Of a stretch of DNA of 64,000 bases, positions 11,248 to 47,670 are shown in pieces. The position numbers were made by a program, and so were the translations under genes. The notes beneath the pieces were generated by a model. That model was not told where the DNA came from. It did not search any database and saw nothing but the letters and a program-made list of their open reading frames with translations. Each line of letters begins with the position of its first letter. Position 1 is the first letter of the stretch. Origin of the DNA: Octopus vulgaris (taxonomy: Eukaryota); contig OX597832.1 of assembly GCA_951406725.2 (NCBI GenBank), positions 70,804,001 to 70,868,000 on the forward strand, in the 5' to 3' direction.

Positions 11248-12410
11248 TTGCATATGCAGGTTCAAGGTGCAGCCATTGGTGTAGGTATAGCTGGAGATGT
11301 GGCTGGCCTCTTCATGACCTGGTGGGACAGAAAATTTAAACAAATGTTAGCAGAACAGTCCACAACTCTTCTATTCTACAGTAGATATGTAGATGACATA
11401 AACATAATAGTTAGGACCAACTCTAGTGACGGTAATGTAGAGACTGAGAAGAACATAATGGAGAGCATCCAGCAAATAGCTAACTCCATTCACCAAAGTA
11501 TCAAGGTAACTATAGATTATCCCACTAAGAACCCTAACAATAGACTCCCTGTACTTGATACTAAACTTTGGTTAGAGAATGTGAACAATAGAGTGCAGCT
11601 CCTCCACTCTTATTACAGGAAACCTGTAACTTCAAAATATGTTGTTCACAAAAACTCAGCTTTGTCACACAACATGAAAATTAACATACTAATAGCAGAC
11701 CTAGTTAGAATAATGAACAATGTGCCCCCACTATGCTACCCTATGAAATGAAGAAACATATACAGAACTTCATACACTGCATGCAGTTCTCTGGATATGA
11801 TCAGAAAGATAGGGTTCGTGTATACAGGGGGGCTAGAAAGAAATTAGATAACATTATACGTAATGATACCAGTGGCACCTGCCCTAGATATAGAAACAAA
11901 GAATGGAATAGAATACAAAGAACTTGTGACAAAGCAAACAGGACGAACACGTGGTATAAAACCGACAAATATCAAGGAGTGATGTTTGTAGAGGTCACAG
12001 CCCATGGAGAACTAGCCCGTAGATTTAGAAAAGCTCTGAAGGAGACCAAACTCAGCATAAAAATTGTTGAAAAATGCATGGTATGTAGAATTAGCCCTGG
12101 TATTAACTGTAGAACTCGAAACGTAGTTTACAGCATAAGATGCATAGAAGGTGCTTGTAGGGACATGAACATGATGTACAAAAGGGGAGACGTCTAGGAG
12201 CATTGTGGAACGGATAAATGAACATCTAAGACAATATGACGACAGAAAACAGTCCTCCATACTCTACTAACATGCCAAAGACCACCATGGAGGTAACTTG
12301 GGTCAACTTGACATCCGCATCTTATCCAAGCACCCAAAAGACCCAACACTCAGACAAATACGGGAGTACGTCCTTATAAATGAAACCGCCCCAATATTAA
12401 ATAGGAAATA
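11248..12410 (+). pseudogene. Penelope-like element RT + GIY-YIG endonuclease, 5'-truncated and frameshifted
   Basis: QVQGAAIG, YSRYVDDINII, LPVLDTKL, YYRKPVT, then CMVC...NCRTRNVVYSIRC...MYK and ERINEHLR across three frames. Confidence 0.85.
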
Positions 12411-13359
12411 TACACAATAAATACCATACCTCCATACCCACAGTTTACGCAGGTAGAATAGAATAGTTAGTGGACTGTCAGGTAGACAAATGTATGTATG
12501 TGGGTGTGAGTGTGTATGTATGCCTTTTTTTATATTTTTATTTTTTAATCATTATTATTTTTTATTTTTTATCTCTGTATGTAAGCATTTAGATATGTAA
12601 TTAAACAGATCTATATACAGATGGATAGACTATATGACTATATGAACAGACACATATGGAGACACGGATCCACACATATAAAGATACACATCCATACATA
12701 CAAACATGGTACATAGTTACATAACACACACACACACAGACATGCACACACAAGGAGACAGAGGTGCATACATATACAAACACATGCTCACATACACATA
12801 CATAGAAAATACACAAACACGGACAGGCAAGCACATAAATATGCAGGATACGTACATACAGATGCACACACATACATATATATGCATACACACACATGTA
12901 TACATACATACACATGCAAATACACACACACACATACATACGTACATGAATGCATGTATAGGCACGCACACATACTGACCCACTGACCCACACGCATGCG
13001 CACAAACAAACAAAAGGGAACGCAGTGTAAATAACGGACAGAGTCAAAACTATTGAACATTTTAGAAAATAAAAATAAGAAATAAGTGGAAATTTTACCG
13101 GTGAGTGTGTTAAATAATAAGGTACTAAAAGAGAATGACTCTCCCCAGACACAACAGAATATGCTTCAACACACGAACTCATATAAAGAATCTTGCAAAC
13201 CAAATCCAAAAACGAAATATATATATATATATATATTGTCTGGTTTACAAAGCCACATCAGACGCCATGATGGATCTAAGGTGTAGGTACAAGAGGTGGT
13301 CAGACTGTATAAGGAGTCGACAACATCAAATACATACATACATACATACATAATACATA

Positions 13360-19318: not shown

Positions 19319-20858
19319 CGTAGGGCTCACCACTTCACCCTACGTGGATACCCCCTCACCACTATCCACACCGCCCTTGCCAGAGCACGGTCCGTGGACC
19401 GTGTAACTGCTCTCTCTCCCCGAACCCGCCCTGTAGTCTCCCGCCTCCCTTTTCCCCTCACTTACCACCCCACGACCCTACCTCTCCAACGCACCATTCT
19501 TCGAGCTTTCCGTCATCTCCAGTCCGACCCGTCCACTTCACACCTCTTCCCTAACCGACCCCTCCCCTCTTTCAAACGAGCCCACAACTTTCGAGACCTT
19601 TTGGTCTATAGCTCCTTCCCTGACCCTACCTCCCAACCCGGCTCGTTCCCCTGCTCCCGCCCACGTTGCCGCACTTGCCCTTACCTCTCCAACACCACCC
19701 TCCTCACTAGCACCCATCATCGACCCTATCCCATCATCCACTCCTTCACCTGCACCTCCAGCAATATTATCTATTGCGTCTCTTGCTCTCTCTGCCATTC
19801 CTTGTACATCGGACAAACGGGACGCCGCTTGGCTGACCGGTTCGCGGAACACCTTCGTGACATCCACCTTGCGAACGACACACCGGTCTCACGCCATTTC
19901 CGCTCCACGGTCACTCCTTGCAACACCTATCTGTGTTCAGTTTGTCCCAACACAGAGGCCATCCGGATTCCCGTTTGCGCCGTGAACAGGAATTAATCTT
20001 CTCTCTTCGCTCTTATACGCCATTTGGTCTCAACTCTCCCCCCCTCCTCATCTAACCCTTCTCCCTCCCCTCCTCACCTACCTTTCCCCCCCGACCCCTA
20101 CTTCTTCAGTCCTTCATCCTTTCATCCCTACTCCCCTTCCCTTCTTCCCTCTTTCTCCCTCCTTCCCTCACTCCCCTTCTCTCTCCCCCTCTCCCTCTTT
20201 CCTCCTTCCTCCTCCCCTCCTCCTCCCCTCCCCCTCTACTCCTCTCTCCACACTACACCACACGACTTTACACATCACATCATATATGATGTGCCATTTA
20301 ATACATACACCAACTAATACATACTAATACGTACTAATACATACTAATACATACACCAACCCTATACATACACACGTCCAGACCTCTCATACGCACTTAT
20401 ACTCTCTCATACACACACCCTTATACATACTAATACGTACTAATACATACTAATACATACTAATACATACACCAGCCCTATACATACACACGTCCAGACC
20501 TCTCATACGCACTAATACTCTCTCATACACACACACACACCCTTATGTTGGAGCCGGTCATTCAACCCTATTATCAACCCTATTATCTCCCCTTATTTCG
20601 TTCTCGCGTCTCATGTTTGATCTTTGACCTCTGGCCGAAATCAGATCGCCATGTTGATTCGTTAGTTACTGCACTCATTTTTTTCTCTCCTTCTTTCTGT
20701 GTTTTTTTTTCTCTCTGTGTATCTTTCTGTTGAAGGGCGTAGGCTCGAAACGTTAAAGACTTGTTTTATTTATATTTCCTGAGCGCCATACTAATACAAT
20801 TGTTTGTTTGTTTTCCACCTGCCTTCGTCTTTTGTCTATTTTCATAAAGCTTCCCGTT
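19318..20858 (+). mobile_element. Penelope-like element 3' part (family A): Cys linker, GIY-YIG, C-rich 3' UTR, hammerhead-like motif, (TA)n
   Basis: ORF 19394-19996: PLTYHP, CSRPRCRTCPYL, FTCTSSNIIYCVSCSLCHSLYIGQTGRRLADRFAEHLRDI. Confidence 0.9.
20722..20759 (+). ncRNA. Minimal type-I hammerhead-like motif (core CUGUUGA plus extra A)
   Basis: TCTTT-CTGTTGA-A-GGGC gtag GCTC-GAAA-CG-TT-AAAGA. Confidence 0.5.
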
Positions 20859-25480: not shown

Positions 25481-26905
25481 CTATCCGTTTTCTTTAGGGG
25501 AACAAAAACGTAACAGAAATTTAGTCACATGTGGGCATGATCCGAAAAGCTCTGTCCTTGTATTTAGACATGTGGTAGGGTCTAAGCTGCTTTTCCAGAT
25601 AAGCCATCTCTCCATGTCGCATAAACCGCACCTTCCGCTGCCGTTAGTATAGGGCTTACATCTGGCCAAAATCTTCCATTGTATGTTATAATCGACACCT
25701 TTATCTCTTAAAGACCAAATATGATTGGATAATTGTGTCGCTTTTCTTTTGTTCCAGTGCCTAAAGCCCAAAGTGTGGTTATTGAACCTGGCCTTGAAAT
25801 TACCCTCTGTCAGGCCCACGTATTTCTTCGTCGAAACGGTGTCTTTAGTGGTTATAGAGTTTACAGTAGCTTCATATATGATGGTCTTGGACATGCAAGC
25901 TCCATTTAGCGGGCACAATTCTTTATTCCTGCATGAACAGCTGTTTTCTTCTTGTGTTTTTTGTATGTTATGATTGATTATGTTTTTAAAATTGGTAGTT
26001 GAACTAAAACTAATTTTTAAATTGTGTCTATTGAAGAGTTTCCTATAAGCATGGTTAACTGGAAAATGTCTATATATCAGTGCTAGGAAATATTTACCTA
26101 TATTGAAGGCCACCTCGGGTGAGTAAGTAAACCAGATGACCTTCCTATTTCTATTATTCCTTTTCCTTATTGTTGGGCTGGTGATAGGTGTATATTTTAT
26201 TTTTTCGCTAAAACCACTATCTTTTAAAGCTTTATTATAAACTGGGGCAACGCTATTGAAGATGTCCTCATTAGATGAGAGGCTAGAAATCCTCTTACTA
26301 ATATTTTTAACTAAATTTTTGAATACTATAGGGGGATGGCATGAACCTACATTAATATAACTTAGTCTATCATTGGGCTTCCTATAAGGCTTATAAATAT
26401 TATTATTAAGATCTAAGGAAACGTCTAAGAAATTGACAACCGTCAGGTTAGTGTCTATAGTTATACTAAGTCCGAAGTGTTTCATTAACTGGATAATATC
26501 CTTCCTAAAACGATCTTGTGCTGGTCCATTTGTATTAGCTGTTAAGGCGAGGGCATCATCTTTGTAGATGGCGAAATGTACGTTAGGGAATGTCTTACTG
26601 AAGGTATCTAGGAGAAAGAGTCCAATTAGATCACAGATGCCTGCCCCATCATATGAACCCATGCTCACATCGAAAGCGCCCTCCGTGTCGGTGTTTTTTA
26701 CCCACTTTGCATTCTCGCTGAAAAGTAATGTCTTTCTAGCATGGAAGATTATATCCTTATCATTGGTACTAATTTCTATGAAGTCACTAGCGAAGATTAG
26801 GGCTTTATCTAGCAGTTCTTTAGAGATAGAGGCATAAAAATCAACAATATCGAATTGTGTAAACCTCGCTTTTTTCTTATTCTTAATAGCTTTAAACCAG
26901 TCTAG
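25481..26905 (-). CDS. PLE reverse transcriptase + GIY-YIG endonuclease (open but N-terminally truncated)
   Basis: FDIVDFYASI, FDVSMGSYDGAGICDLIG, IYKDDAL, NFLDV, YKPYRKPN, CSCRNKELCPLNGAC, IIYEA...YVGLTEGNFKARFNNH, CGLC. Confidence 0.9.
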   Translation of the reverse strand, partial: LDWFKAIKNKKKARFTQFDIVDFYASISKELLDKALIFASDFIEISTNDKDIIFHARKTLLFSENAKWVKNTDTEGAFDVSMGSYDGAGICDLIGLFLLDTFSKTFPNVHFAIYKDDALALTANTNGPAQDRFRKDIIQLMKHFGLSITIDTNLTVVNFLDVSLDLNNNIYKPYRKPNDRLSYINVGSCHPPIVFKNLVKNISKRISSLSSNEDIFNSVAPVYNKALKDSGFSEKIKYTPITSPTIRKRNNRNRKVIWFTYSPEVAFNIGKYFLALIYRHFPVNHAYRKLFNRHNLKISFSSTTNFKNIINHNIQKTQEENSCSCRNKELCPLNGACMSKTIIYEATVNSITTKDTVSTKKYVGLTEGNFKARFNNHTLGFRHWNKRKATQLSNHIWSLRDKGVDYNIQWKILARCKPYTNGSGRCGLCDMERWLIWKSSLDPTTCLNTRTELFGSCPHVTKFLLRFCSPKENG

Positions 26906-27802
26906 CCCAACAATAAGGAAAAGGAATAATAGAAATAGGAAGGTCATCTGGTTTACGCCCCCTTACTCACCCGAGGTGGCCTTCAATATAGGTAAATATT
27001 TCCTAGCACTGATAGATAGACATTTTCCAGTTAACCATGCTTATAGGAAACTCTTCAATAGACACAATTTAAAAATTAGTTTTAGTTCAACTACCAATTT
27101 TAAAAACATAATCAATCATAACATACAAAAAACACAAGAAGAAAACAGCTGTTCATGCAGGAATAAAGAATTGTGCCCGCTAAATGGAGCTTGCATGTCC
27201 AAGACCATCATATATGAAGCTACCGTAAACTCTATAACCACTAAAGACACCGTTTCGACGAAGAAATACGTGGGCCTGACAGAGGGTAATTTCAAGGCCA
27301 GGTTCAATAACCACACTTTGAGCTTTAGGCACTGGAACAAAAGAAAAGCGACACAATTATCCAATCATATTTGGTCTTTAAGAGATAAAGGTGTCGATTA
27401 TAACATACAATGGAAGATTTTGGCCAGATGTAAGCCCTATACTAACGGCAGCGGAAGGTGCGGTTTATGCGACATGGAGAGATGGCTTATCTGGAAAAGC
27501 AGCTTAGACCCTACCACATGTCTAAATACAAGGACAGAGCTTTTCGGATCATGCCCACATGTGACTAAATTTCTGTTACGTTTTTGGTCCCCTAAAGAAA
27601 ACGGATAGAACATGCTTTCTGTGTTATGTCCCAAGAAGATTTTATATATTTTTATATATTTTTATATATTTTTATGTATTTTTATATAATTTTTATGACG
27701 AAAAATGCGAGCGATGTATAAGTACGCAGGCAAAGCAGAGTTATAACAGAGTAATTTCCCTTCATTTTTAACGGTATTTTTTCATAACGTTTTCAAATAG
27801 CC

Positions 27803-28488: not shown

Positions 28489-28585
<97 letters not shown>

Positions 28586-28586
<1 letters not shown>

Positions 28587-28980
28587 TAGCAGTATCGCCC
28601 GGCGTTGCTCGGGTTTGTAAGGGAAATAATTATATAAGCATTTTTAGAGATGTAAAGTATAATAGCCATCTCAATATGGCTAACCACAAAGGGGGAGGGG
28701 TGTTACTGTAGCTTTTTACGTTCTTAGATTTAATAATAAATTTTAGAGAGATACTTCCCTTATATATGTCAAAAATGGATTAAAAATGGGAAAAATTGAT
28801 GGTAAATTTTTTTTTAAATCGTAGACTCATCGTAGACGCGCGCTAATACCCAGACGGTCTCGATATGAATCACGACTATAAGATACCCGGTTTTGGTTAA
28901 ACTGCACCGCAAAATGTGGGAGTAGTTAGGAATCTAAATCGTAGGAGACAGACACACAACCTCACTTTTATATATAAAGA
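28586..28980 (-). mobile_element. Non-autonomous Helitron
   Basis: Minus strand begins 5'-TCTTTATATATAAAAG and ends with hairpin CCCGAGCAACGCCGGG followed by CTAG; inserted between A and T, no TSD. Confidence 0.8.
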
Positions 28981-29146
28981 TTTCCTCTATTTACATAATA
29001 TTGAGGTCTCTTTCTTTCTTTTGTTATCTTACTGTTTTTACCAATATACATATATATATATATATATATAAATATATATATAGTTACAGAGATGTACTTG
29101 CATAGCAAGTGACTTGATCTGAGATCGTGTGCTGGAACGAAAACAG

Positions 29147-29405
29147 TTGCAACGTTGAAGGTGTTTATAAGCCATTTAAGAAACACACAAAAACCGTTAG
29201 ATTCACTTCAACATTTAAATTTAATTTGTCAAAATATTTTCGTCGCTTTGAGACCGCGACCTGTTAGCACGATATTTTTGTCAGTGAACAGGTCGCGGTC
29301 TCAAAGCGACGAAAATATTTTGGCAAATTAAATTTAAATGTTGAAGTGAATGTAACGGTTTTTGTGTGTTTCTTAAATGGCTTACAAACACCTTCCACGC
29401 TGCAA
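29147..29405. repeat. Inverted repeat (119-bp arms, 21-bp spacer) carrying a hammerhead-like motif
   Basis: Arms 29147-29265 and 29287-29405 with a few mismatches; (TA)n nearby on both sides. Confidence 0.9.
29277..29327 (+). ncRNA. Type-I hammerhead motif with G3-C8 core
   Basis: TTTGTCA-GTGAACA-G-GTCGC ggtctcaaa GCGAC-GAAA-ATAT-TT-TGGCAAA. Confidence 0.6.
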
Positions 29406-29469
29406 TATATATATACACACATATATATATATGTATGTATGTATGTATGTGTGTATATGTGTATGCATG

Positions 29470-29705
29470 TATGTGTGTGTGTGTGCGTGTCTGTGCTTGT
29501 GATTGTCCTCCACCACTGCTTGACAACGAATGTTGATTTGTTTACATCCCTGTCACCTAGTGGTTTGACAAAGGAAACAGATAGAATAAGTACAATGCTT
29601 ACAAAAATAAAAGTGGAGTTGATTCATTAAACTACAATTCTTCAAGGCATTGCCCCAGCATGGCCACAGACCAATGGCTGGAAAAAGCAGAAGAATAAAA
29701 GAATA
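29470..29705 (+). mobile_element. 3' half of the SINE family seen at 32849 and 47733
   Basis: tgtttacatccc...gatagaataagtac...gccccagcatggccacag tail. Confidence 0.65.
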
Positions 29706-29770
29706 CATTCTCTGCTTTGGTATTATGTTCAAGGCATGAGAAAGCTTGAGTTTACATGAGAAGGCCTAAC

Positions 29771-30034
29771 AGACCTGGTAGAAACAGCAGCCAAATCTCC
29801 CTCAAATCACACCTTACTGTCTTATGTATGTATATATATATGAGCCAATGAGGGGGACCTCTACATGGTAGCTAGACCTGGTAGATATAGCAGCCAAATT
29901 TCCCCCAAATCACACCTTACTGTCTTATCTGTGTATATATGTATGTATGAGCCTATGAGGGAGACCCCTACATGGCAGCTAGACATGGTAGAAATAGCAG
30001 CCAAATCTCCCACAAATCACACCTTACTGTCTTA
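29771..30034. repeat. Three tandem copies of a unit of about 105 bp
   Basis: agacctggtagaaacagcagccaaatctccctcaaatcacaccttactgtctta recurs at about 29771, 29874 and 29980. Confidence 0.8.
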
Positions 30035-30139
30035 TCTTTCTGCTACTTGGATATAGGTCTTATATTCGTCGTAAAAAACTTTACTGTCACACACTCACGC
30101 ACACGCACACACACACACACACACACACGCACCCTCACA

Positions 30140-30170
<31 letters not shown>

Positions 30171-30683
30171 TCACACACACGCACGTTAGCTTACAATTTT
30201 ATTATTTATATATTTGCGTGTCTATGTGTGGAAATAGGAAGTGGGAGGCAGAGTGAAAGAATCACTCACTACAGTAAGTGAATTACTTTCATTTTATTCG
30301 TTGCCCACTGTGTGTGTGCGTTTGCGTGTGGTGTAAACCAGACTAAGAAAAGCATTTGACACACACACCAGAATGTGAGATTTCTGTAATTTTTGCTTAA
30401 TTGGAGTTTAAATTTTAAAAACTGGACCTGGCATGACGCGATGCATTCTACTCTTAAAAATGCTAGGTAAATTGTAATTGAAGAAATCCTATATTGTAGA
30501 TTTCTATAACTCCCAAAGGGAGGCAGATAAAATCTGCCTTTTATAATAAGATATATACATATATATATATATATATAATAATAGAAATAATATAAGGGAA
30601 TAAATCCAAACTTACAGGGAAAAATTAGATTTAGGATTAAATCCAATAGTATAAACATATTATATTATATTATATTATCTCTA

Positions 30684-39471: not shown

Positions 39472-39780
39472 TTGTTCTATGGGCTTCCAAAAATACACAA
39501 GAGTCAAATTATCACAGAAGCTTGCAAAAAGTCCACTTCAATCTGCATCACTATACCACATCCCACTGATCTCAGACTGAGACCAATAGTAGCAGGCCCA
39601 AGCTGTGAAACACACAGACCTAGCAACTTTATCGATATCATCCTAAAACCAATACTGAAACACATTCCAAGTATTGTAAGAGATGACCTGAACCTATTAA
39701 ATCATCTCCCCAAACATACCGATAAAGACACTTTAATCGTCTCCTTTGATGTAGTAAACCTTTACACTACGATCCCACAT
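39472..39780 (+). pseudogene. PLE reverse transcriptase N-terminal fragment
   Basis: FYGLPKIHKS...LRPIVAGP...FIDIILKP...IVSFDVVNLYTTIPH. Confidence 0.85.
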
Positions 39781-40644
39781 ATGTTTGCGTGTGTGTAAAC
39801 ATAGGCAGGCATATACATATATATACTCTAAAACATATATATGTATACATATATGTATCTGTGTATGTATGTGCATGTGTGCATGTGTGTGTGTATGTGT
39901 GTATGTGTGTGTGTGTGCGCGCATCTGTATTTGTTTAATGATAGTTTGAATCAGCTCCCTATTACTTATACTCGAACTAAGTATGCTGAGCGCTACTTTC
40001 TTTTGATTCTTCACTCATATATGTGTGTGTATGTGTGAATGTATAAGCGCACACACACACATATATGTATATACATGCATAAGCATAAAGATGTACGTGT
40101 GTATGTATATCTGTATATATATATATATATATATTACCTGTATCTATTTTCCATACTAAAGCCAGGCTATTAACCAAGAGGAATCCCAGCAGCTTCCTTC
40201 AACGGTTTGACTTCCATAATATTAATGACAGTGAAATGGTATTTTTTCTTTAGAATCATTCGTCGGTGTTGCTGTGTGAAGGTGTGAATGAGCAGGTAAT
40301 ATATTTTCTATCCAAACACCAATTCATGATGGACGTTAACCGGAAGTAGTGACATTTAATGAACGTTAATAGCGATTAAGTTGTTGCCGTCGTCGTTATT
40401 TGTTTCGTTGTTGTGTTGTTTTGTCGCTTTTATTTCTCATGCATTTTTATTATTCGTTTACTTCTGTTATTGTTGTTTGTGTTGTTGTTGTTGTTGTCAT
40501 TGTTATTATTGTTGTTGTTGTGGATGATGATGATGATGATGTTTCCTGTTGTTGCTGTAGTTAATGATTTTTTTTTGGTTGCCATTGTGATTATTGTTAT
40601 TATCCTTGTTCATATTATTTTTCTTGTCGTTGTTACTGCCGCTA

Positions 40645-46799: not shown

Positions 46800-47670
46800 T
46801 TGCTAGCTATGCAGACGATACCAAAGTTTCTCTGAGGATACAGGACCCTGGTGACATTGTGCATCTTCAGGTGGTCTGAAGAAAACATGTAGGTTAATGG
46901 TGGAAAATTCCAAACCCTGCACAACCAACACAGGAATCAAAATCAGTTCGTGACCTGGGCATTGACATGAGTAATGATGCATCTTTCCAAGTTGAAAATA
47001 AAATGCAGACGTTTGGCTGGGTGGATCCTTCGAACTTTCAAAACAAGAGAAAAGGAAACCATAATGGTCATCTGGAGGACTTTCGGTCTCATCCACCTGG
47101 ATTACTGCTCGCACATGTGGTCACCAAACAATGCAAAATTACCGACGGAATTCGAGGTGATCCAGCGAAGCTACACGAGGAGGATCGACACAATGCGACA
47201 TATCCGCAAGTGGGAGAGACTGAAAGAGTTCAAAGTCTATTCCCCGGAGCGAAGCGGAGAAAGACATGCAGTAATATACATCTGGAAAATTCTAGAAAAC
47301 CTTGTGCCAAACTTTAGCATTACCAATTATATAAACAGCAGGACGGGGTGCCACTGCATAGTACCAAAAAGCCCAACATCACCATCAGGATATAGAACCA
47401 GATACTGCAACAGCTTGGACTTCAAAGGCCCACAGCTCATCAAAATCTTTCCACAAAGCCTTAGAGAACTGCACGGCGTGGATGTAGGCTTTTTCAGAAC
47501 AAATCTGGATCCCCTTCTGTAAAGAGTTCTGGATGAACCAATCTCAAGGCAAGAAACACAGATGTTAAACTCACTTGTCTACCAAATGTTATACATCAGA
47601 GGAGGTTTAGTGAAAATGTAGCAAAGTAAATGGCGGTGCGCTACCATGGCCGCAGTCCTTGGACTGAAAC
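46800..47670 (+). mobile_element. CR1-like LINE 3' fragment (RT end to 3' UTR), decayed
   Basis: YADDTK at about 46807, RDLGI, LAGWILRTF, HLDYCSHMWSP, FKGPQLIKIFP; same family as 32262. Confidence 0.85.

What the first reader, a model, noticed from the sequence alone, without database searches (positions are those of the whole stretch)
29277..29327. G3-C8 swapped hammerhead core with an extra nucleotide after A9
Seen: 7-bp stem I (TTTGTCA/TGGCAAA; the other arm has the perfect TGACAAA), core GUGAACA, an extra G, a 5-bp GC-rich stem II, GAAA, a palindromic AAAAUAUUUU stem III region and a UUU triplet. A reciprocal swap of the 3-8 pair needs two transversions and is unlikely to come from neutral decay.
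Basis: partly seen in the sequence, partly recalled or inferred. Interest (0 to 1): 0.75.

Follow-up and report, generated by a model that had tools for sequence, protein, structure and literature searches.

The report
Swapped-core hammerhead of Penelope-like retroelement
This is a passenger copy of a hammerhead-shaped RNA motif from the end repeat of a very common jumping-gene family, in which two paired core letters have traded places throughout the family; the family motif likely still cuts weakly, but cutting is untested and this copy is probably inactive.

Summary
Observation confirmed. The motif is a minimal type I hammerhead in the pseudo-LTR of a Penelope-like retroelement. G3-C8 is a family trait, not decay: 7,050 pattern matches in the genome (control 4), 95 of the first 100 unbiased matches, and it sits about 1 kb behind RT+GIY-YIG frames. 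It persists from an old lineage (copies 24% diverged) to a young one (1%), while N7, loop II and stem III length changed and one stem I pair changed on both sides. Sister families keep C3-G8. The extra nucleotide and palindromic stem III are ordinary for these elements; natural U3-A8 is published and lab C3G/G8C mutants are partly active. I found no natural G3-C8 in print (8 searches; four key papers not held). Against function: a young sister family with about 3,000 matches carries A9C, and copy 5' ends do not gather at the cut site. The window copy rides in a 2-kb carrier repeat and is buried in a 119-bp hairpin. This scan already reported the same family on other DNA of this genome. New variant of a known kind; cleavage untested.

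The parts
29277..29283 (+). Stem I, 5' strand
   Evidence: pairs with 29321-29327
29284..29290 (+). Core positions 3-9 with G3 (29284) and C8 (29289)
   Evidence: family state in 95 of first 100 matches
29291..29291 (+). Extra nucleotide between A9 and G10.1
   Evidence: also in C3-G8 sister families; conserved trait in PMC4209133
29292..29310 (+). Stem II (5 bp, G10.1-C11.1) with 9-nt loop
   Evidence: loop differs between subfamilies, stem does not
29311..29320 (+). G12-A13-A14, self-complementary 6-nt stem III segment, U17; predicted cut between 29320 and 29321
   Evidence: cut site inferred from hammerhead numbering, not observed
29321..29327 (+). Stem I, 3' strand; G at 29323 marks the passenger lineage (free copies have A)
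29266..29405 (+). 5'-truncated pseudo-LTR copy (sense arm) of a Penelope-like element
   Evidence: homologous to the repeat about 1 kb behind RT+GIY-YIG frames
29084..29265 (-). Inverted pseudo-LTR copy, cut off inside the core (starts at A6), with the longer 3' tail
28585..30560 (.). About 2-kb carrier repeat in (TA)n that holds the inverted pair as a passenger (ends approximate; Helitron-like by recalled terminal motifs, not tested)
   Evidence: flanks shared by 28-30 of 30 loci from about 28600 to 30500

Best explanation
The motif is a minimal type I hammerhead in the pseudo-LTR of a Penelope-like retroelement family whose 3-8 core pair is G-C in place of C-G; the family motif likely still folds as a hammerhead and would cut weakly after U17, probably only as a dimer or with help from the element's protein, while this copy is probably inactive. 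Shown: the anatomy, the family-wide G3-C8 state, its place about 1 kb behind the RT+GIY-YIG frame and ahead of the next frame in a tandem, and C3-G8 in sister families. Inferred: the swap arose once in a master lineage, the fold has been kept by selection since, two motifs pair their palindromic stem III segments to complete the core, and cutting is slow enough that uncut RNA remains the template for new copies. This copy came as an inverted, 5'-truncated pseudo-LTR pair that was then multiplied inside a 2-kb carrier repeat; a transcript through both arms would fold into one long hairpin.
For: 7,050 matches to a G3-C8 pattern, control 4; 488 with another base at 8, control 31. Motif found in 24 of 29 loci picked by protein alone (L062-L090) and in 20 of 20 longer loci (partly overlapping these), always G3-C8. 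L092 holds a 1,025-codon open frame with a GIY-YIG hit above Pfam's cut-off. Old, middle and young lineages (34, 30, 39 distinct copies; 24%, 5.6%, 1.1% from their own majority) share core, stem II and five stem I pairs; changes fall on N7, loop II, a 2-nt insertion that keeps the stem III palindrome, and one stem I pair changed on both sides. Constrained positions not fixed by my pattern: 0 of 17 changed against 13 of 71 and 14 of 70 in flanks (p 0.048, 0.036); middle versus young 0 of 41 against 6 of 75 (p 0.068). Lab data: C3G/G8C partly restores cutting in a Penelope hammerhead, which cuts only with protein (PMC11167929); it is the one rescuing swap in a full double-mutant scan (PMC9901934).
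Against: No cleavage data. A young sister family (55% protein identity, intact tandem frames) has C at the invariant position 9 in 96 of the first 100 of 3,167 matches and in 14 of 14 motifs beside long frames, so amplification here does not need a textbook core. Only 2 of 123 copies begin at the predicted cut, 22 begin about 20 nt upstream of G3 (biased set). The flanks are conserved too (82% old to young), the p-values are marginal and not independent, and I chose the 17 positions after seeing the alignment. The hammerhead dimer is not the minimum-energy dimer (-25.4 against -30.6 kcal/mol) and the 6-bp stem III duplex is worth only -0.2. The old lineage was found by a pattern that fixes 18 positions, and none of its 34 loci gave a protein hit. 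Insertion in vitro does not need the hammerhead.
Confidence: 0.6

Rival explanations
1. The motif is a catalytically dead hammerhead relic. The swap drifted in through an inactive intermediate, and the sequence is held by another job of the pseudo-LTR (promoter, splice acceptor, binding by the element's protein) or simply by slow turnover of master copies.
For: A9C sister family with about 3,000 matches; no gathering of 5' ends at the cut; high conservation of the whole pseudo-LTR; hammerhead mutants insert normally in vitro and no RNA-seq ends were found at the cut in the anole element (PMC11167929); U17 and an AU-only stem III.
Against: The new pair is exactly the one that rescues activity in the lab. 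Changes between lineages fall on tolerant positions, with one two-sided stem change and a palindrome-keeping insertion. No mismatched 3-8 subfamily stands out: base 8 in the first 100 non-C matches is about 51 T, 29 G, 20 A by hand count, as decay would give.
Confidence: 0.33
2. The family motif is a fully active ribozyme whose cutting processes the element's RNA for every round of transposition.
For: Conservation pattern; presence in the youngest copies with intact frames.
Against: Copies run through the 3' hammerhead into the frame, so their templates were uncut there; 2 of 123 start at the cut; lab swaps restore activity only partly; minimal Penelope hammerheads are slow even as dimers.
Confidence: 0.06
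3. Chance look-alike, or decay peculiar to this copy.
For: Weak folding z-score; no Rfam hammerhead match.
Against: Thousands of copies, the expected place in a Penelope-like element, and canonical sister motifs of the same layout.
Confidence: 0.01

Closest known systems
Minimal type I hammerheads of metazoan Penelope-like elements (Cervera and de la Pena 2014, PMC4209133; read parts 1-2 of 4, supplement file 2 parts 1-2 of 3)
   Same: Place in the pseudo-LTR; extra nucleotide between 9 and 10.1; G10.1-C11.1; palindromic short stem III; many 5'-truncated and opposite-strand copies.
   Different: G3-C8. The 56-row alignment shows C3-G8, two U3-A8 and one U3-G8, no G3-C8. The extra base is G (published consensus H); stem I is 6-7 bp.
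Natural U3-A8 core variants (PMC3088659, section 8 and passages; PMC4209133)
   Same: Natural two-sided change of the 3-8 pair.
   Different: U-A needs two transitions and can pass through U.G; G-C needs two transversions through a mismatch.
Engineered C3G/G8C hammerheads (PMC11167929 parts 1-2 of 4; PMC9901934, PMC8495972, PMC3884650 passages)
   Same: Same swap; partly active, including in a Penelope element of anole.
   Different: Here natural, in thousands of copies and across lineages of very different age.
Neptune/Nematis-type Penelope-like elements (PMC8557442, passages)
   Same: RT, linker C-x3-C-x2-C, C-terminal GIY-YIG, (TA)n targets, inverted 5'-truncated partner copies, optional 3' tail.
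   Different: Clade not placed by a tree here; non-canonical core.

Membership tests
Hammerhead ribozyme (type I) | Three helices around the core, ends in stem I | tested here: met
   Stems I (7 bp) and II (5 bp) fold; stem III only between two copies
Hammerhead ribozyme (type I) | U4 G5 A6, A9, G12 A13 A14, A15.1-U16.1, H17 | tested here: met
   kept in all three lineage majorities (several of these were fixed by the pattern for the old lineage)
Hammerhead ribozyme (type I) | C3-G8 identity of the textbook consensus | tested here: not met
   G3-C8 in 95 of first 100 matches, C3-G8 in 0
Hammerhead ribozyme (type I) | Watson-Crick pair between positions 3 and 8 | tested here: met
   G-C is complementary; pairing itself inferred
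Hammerhead ribozyme (type I) | Self-cleavage after N17 | not testable with these tools
   No raw RNA reads offered; genomic 5' ends do not mark the site
Rfam hammerhead families | Match to a covariance model | tested here: not met
   None among 15 matches at E up to 10
Penelope minimal hammerhead | Lies in the pseudo-LTR behind an RT+GIY-YIG frame | tested here: met
   tandem unit of 4,261 nt in L094
Penelope minimal hammerhead | Extra base 9/10.1, G10.1-C11.1, palindromic stem III | tested here: met
Penelope minimal hammerhead | Acts as a dimer | tested here: inconclusive
   Dimer topology possible but not the minimum-energy form
Neptune/Nematis clade | Linker zinc-finger motif ahead of a C-terminal GIY-YIG | tested here: met
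   Seen in the L092 translation; motif definition
Neptune/Nematis clade | Position in an RT tree with named members | not tested
   No named reference proteins fetched; no tree built
Helitron-like carrier repeat | Terminal motifs, no target duplication, link to a Rep/helicase partner | not tested
   Only the extent was mapped; the label is recalled

The most novel reading that the evidence does not exclude
Penelope hammerheads in this animal are tuned down rather than kept optimal: a lineage crossed an inactive 3-8 mismatch, regained a weaker G3-C8 ribozyme and kept it through several waves of amplification, while a sister lineage went to A9C. That would be the first natural G3-C8 hammerhead and a natural series (C3-G8, G3-C8, A9C) showing that slow cutting is what these elements select, because uncut RNA is their template.
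Probability: 0.2. Interest if true: 0.65.

Novelty: new variant of a known kind. Interest (0 to 1): 0.45.

Why it matters
What hammerheads do for Penelope-like elements is open: they may process the RNA, be optional, or be parasites (PMC8557442, PMC11167929). One genome here offers young families with C3-G8, G3-C8 and A9C cores, some beside open reading frames of over 1,000 codons, so rate can be set against amplification success directly. A natural G3-C8 core would also extend the known covariation of the 3-8 pair, and descriptors that fix CUGAnGA miss thousands of such motifs. The surprise is moderate, since the swap is known to work partly in the lab and U3-A8 is known in nature.

Tried and rejected
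Rfam: the whole-window scan was swamped by microsatellite matches; the local scan gave hairpin look-alikes only. The first 40 scored genomic hits, all 100% identical, are not independent: the 30 fetched share their flanks and descend from one passenger insertion, so I did not use them as evidence of selection. A G3.G8 intermediate subfamily, suggested by 4 of 20 loci, was not borne out. A looser G3-C8 pattern with A/C/T as extra base gave 636 matches against 362 in the control: decayed family copies and noise, no clear new family in the first 100. No C3-G8 or U3-A8 family with this stem III: 38 matches in all, mostly double mutants and fold-back artefacts. Sequencing runs: no RNA holder listed, contigs only. 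The contig lays show the family under further coded labels (B, C, D), but cannot show ends or expression; no loose end at the cut among the 24 rows shown, 375 not shown. Literature: 8 searches found no natural G3-C8. Not held: Przybilski and Hammann 2007, Lunse et al. on Penelope hammerhead variants, a 2012 hammerhead review, Nelson and Uhlenbeck 2008; any of them may report one. The text search of the PMC3088659 supplements found nothing, but structure figures may not be held as text. bioRxiv 10.64898/2026.07.22.740005 was only term-searched; its supplements were not seen.

Full report
What is there. The 51 nt hold a type I hammerhead layout with G3 and C8, one extra G, a 5-bp stem II, a 6-nt self-complementary stem III segment and U17. 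It is the single hit of my descriptor in the window. It is the sense arm of a 119-nt inverted repeat; the other arm stops inside the core. The region as a whole folds as one hairpin of -191 kcal/mol, against about -12 for the hammerhead fold of the motif, so a transcript through both arms would bury it.

Two layers of repetition. The 40 scored hits of a DNA search are 100% identical to the window, and the 30 fetched share their flanks from about 28600 to 30500. The inverted pair is therefore one old insertion carried by a 2-kb repeat; its G in stem I makes up 19% and 16% of contig depth in two runs. Free copies with other flanks have the perfect stem I: 538 exact matches. With positions 3, 7 and 8 free there are 1,149 matches; of the first 100, 95 are G3-C8 and none C3-G8. 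A wider pattern gives 7,050 G3-C8 matches and 488 with another base at 8.

The parent element. One free copy lies 1 kb behind a GIY-YIG frame end. Searching with that protein, without regard to the motif, returned loci of which 24 of 29 carry the G3-C8 motif on the coding strand about 1 kb behind the stop; 20 of 20 longer loci do too. L092 has a 1,025-codon open frame with RT motifs, a linker C-x3-C-x2-C and a GIY-YIG hit; L094 shows the tandem unit motif-frame-motif of 4,261 nt. This is the build of Neptune/Nematis-type Penelope-like elements, with (TA)n targets and inverted 5'-truncated partners (PMC8557442). A named octopus protein, 58% identical to L092, matches the genome at 98-100%, so the host is probably an octopus (inference).

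History of the swap. Three G3-C8 lineages were compared: old (34 copies, 24% from their majority; 14 from pattern loci and 20 picked by eye from the first 100 of 127 matches), middle (30, 5.6%, the window's type) and young (39, 1.1%). Core, stem II and five stem I pairs are the same in all three. What changed is N7, loop II, the length of stem III (by 2 nt, palindrome kept) and the sixth stem I pair on both sides. Base 8, left free, is C in 30 of 34 old copies. Counts: 0 of 17 free constrained positions changed, against 13 of 71 and 14 of 70 flank positions (p 0.048, 0.036); middle against young 0 of 41 versus 6 of 75 (p 0.068). This is modest evidence of selection on the fold: the old lineage was found through its core, the 17 positions were chosen after the fact, and no old locus showed a protein hit. 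Sister families have C3-G8 with the same extra G and a like stem II: 1,730 matches, control 5, some behind related frames of about 40% identity. As C3-G8 is the general state, G3-C8 is taken as derived (inference; no tree).

Against an essential cut. The family of the named protein is young, has tandem frames of about 1,310 codons, and carries C at position 9 in 14 of 14 motifs and in 96 of the first 100 of 3,167 matches. That A9 is needed for fast cutting is recalled, not read here. Copies joined to a frame run through the 3' hammerhead, so their templates were uncut. Among 123 copies not at the centre of a pattern locus, 2 begin at the predicted cut, 22 about 20 nt upstream of G3 and 58 run on upstream (the set is biased by how loci were found). 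This fits the anole element, where uncut RNA is the main substrate and hammerhead mutants insert normally.

How it most likely works. Shown: structure, place, family state, sister states. Inferred: in tandem transcripts two motifs pair their stem III segments, perhaps helped by the element's protein, G3 pairs with C8 and places the 2'-OH of nucleotide 8, and slow cutting follows after U17. The basis is lab work: C3G/G8C partly restores a Penelope hammerhead and is the one rescuing swap of a full pairwise scan; base 8 acts through its 2'-OH. Predicted energies do not favour the dimer. I put this at 0.6, a dead relic at 0.33.

Comparison and novelty. It works like, and by place and build belongs with, the minimal Penelope hammerheads; it fails the textbook C3-G8 identity, and cleavage is untested. 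The extra nucleotide is not new. The published 56-row alignment has no G3-C8, natural U3-A8 is described, and 8 searches found no natural G3-C8, with four relevant papers not held. Earlier notes of this scan report the same family on other pieces of this genome; they are unchecked AI notes and not independent support. The old lineage, the A9C contrast and the passenger status of this copy were tested here. Verdict: new variant of a known kind, interest 0.45.

Noticed in passing
L252-L257, L263; genome-wide: A young Penelope-like family with intact tandem frames of about 1,310 codons carries C at hammerhead core position 9 in 96 of the first 100 of 3,167 matches; older copies have A9. Its stem III segment is not palindromic.
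   Followed up: partly
L092:2480-2505 (minus strand): Just upstream of stem I lies a branch-point-like ACTAAC, a pyrimidine run and an AG; short copies begin at this point. It could be a splice acceptor (as beside the Drosophila Penelope hammerhead) or the transcription start.
   Followed up: partly
window 28585-30560: A 2-kb composite repeat in (TA)n with a 5' hairpin, an inner end-like motif near 28980 and a 3' hairpin; Helitron-like by recalled motifs; hundreds of near-identical copies (877 candidates).
   Followed up: partly
L262:3052-3102: One copy with this family's loop but a C3-G8 core, next to an inverted G3-C8 partner: double back-mutation or a chimera with a canonical family.
   Followed up: no
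L145 (minus strand, near 337) and L097 (minus strand, index 3128): Incidental minimal hammerheads of other families: one with U3-A8, one with C3-G8.
   Followed up: no
window 11248-12408: Decayed Penelope-like frame, 42-57% identical to L092; no intact hammerhead seen in its 3' repeat near 13030-13200.
   Followed up: partly
window 25481-27608: Inverted pair of RT/GIY-YIG-like frame fragments of another Penelope-like family; further RT or endonuclease-like fragments at 19319-19996, about 39550-39798 and 46971-47522 (judged by eye).
   Followed up: no
window 29640-30040: Three roughly 115-nt direct repeats inside the carrier repeat.
   Followed up: no
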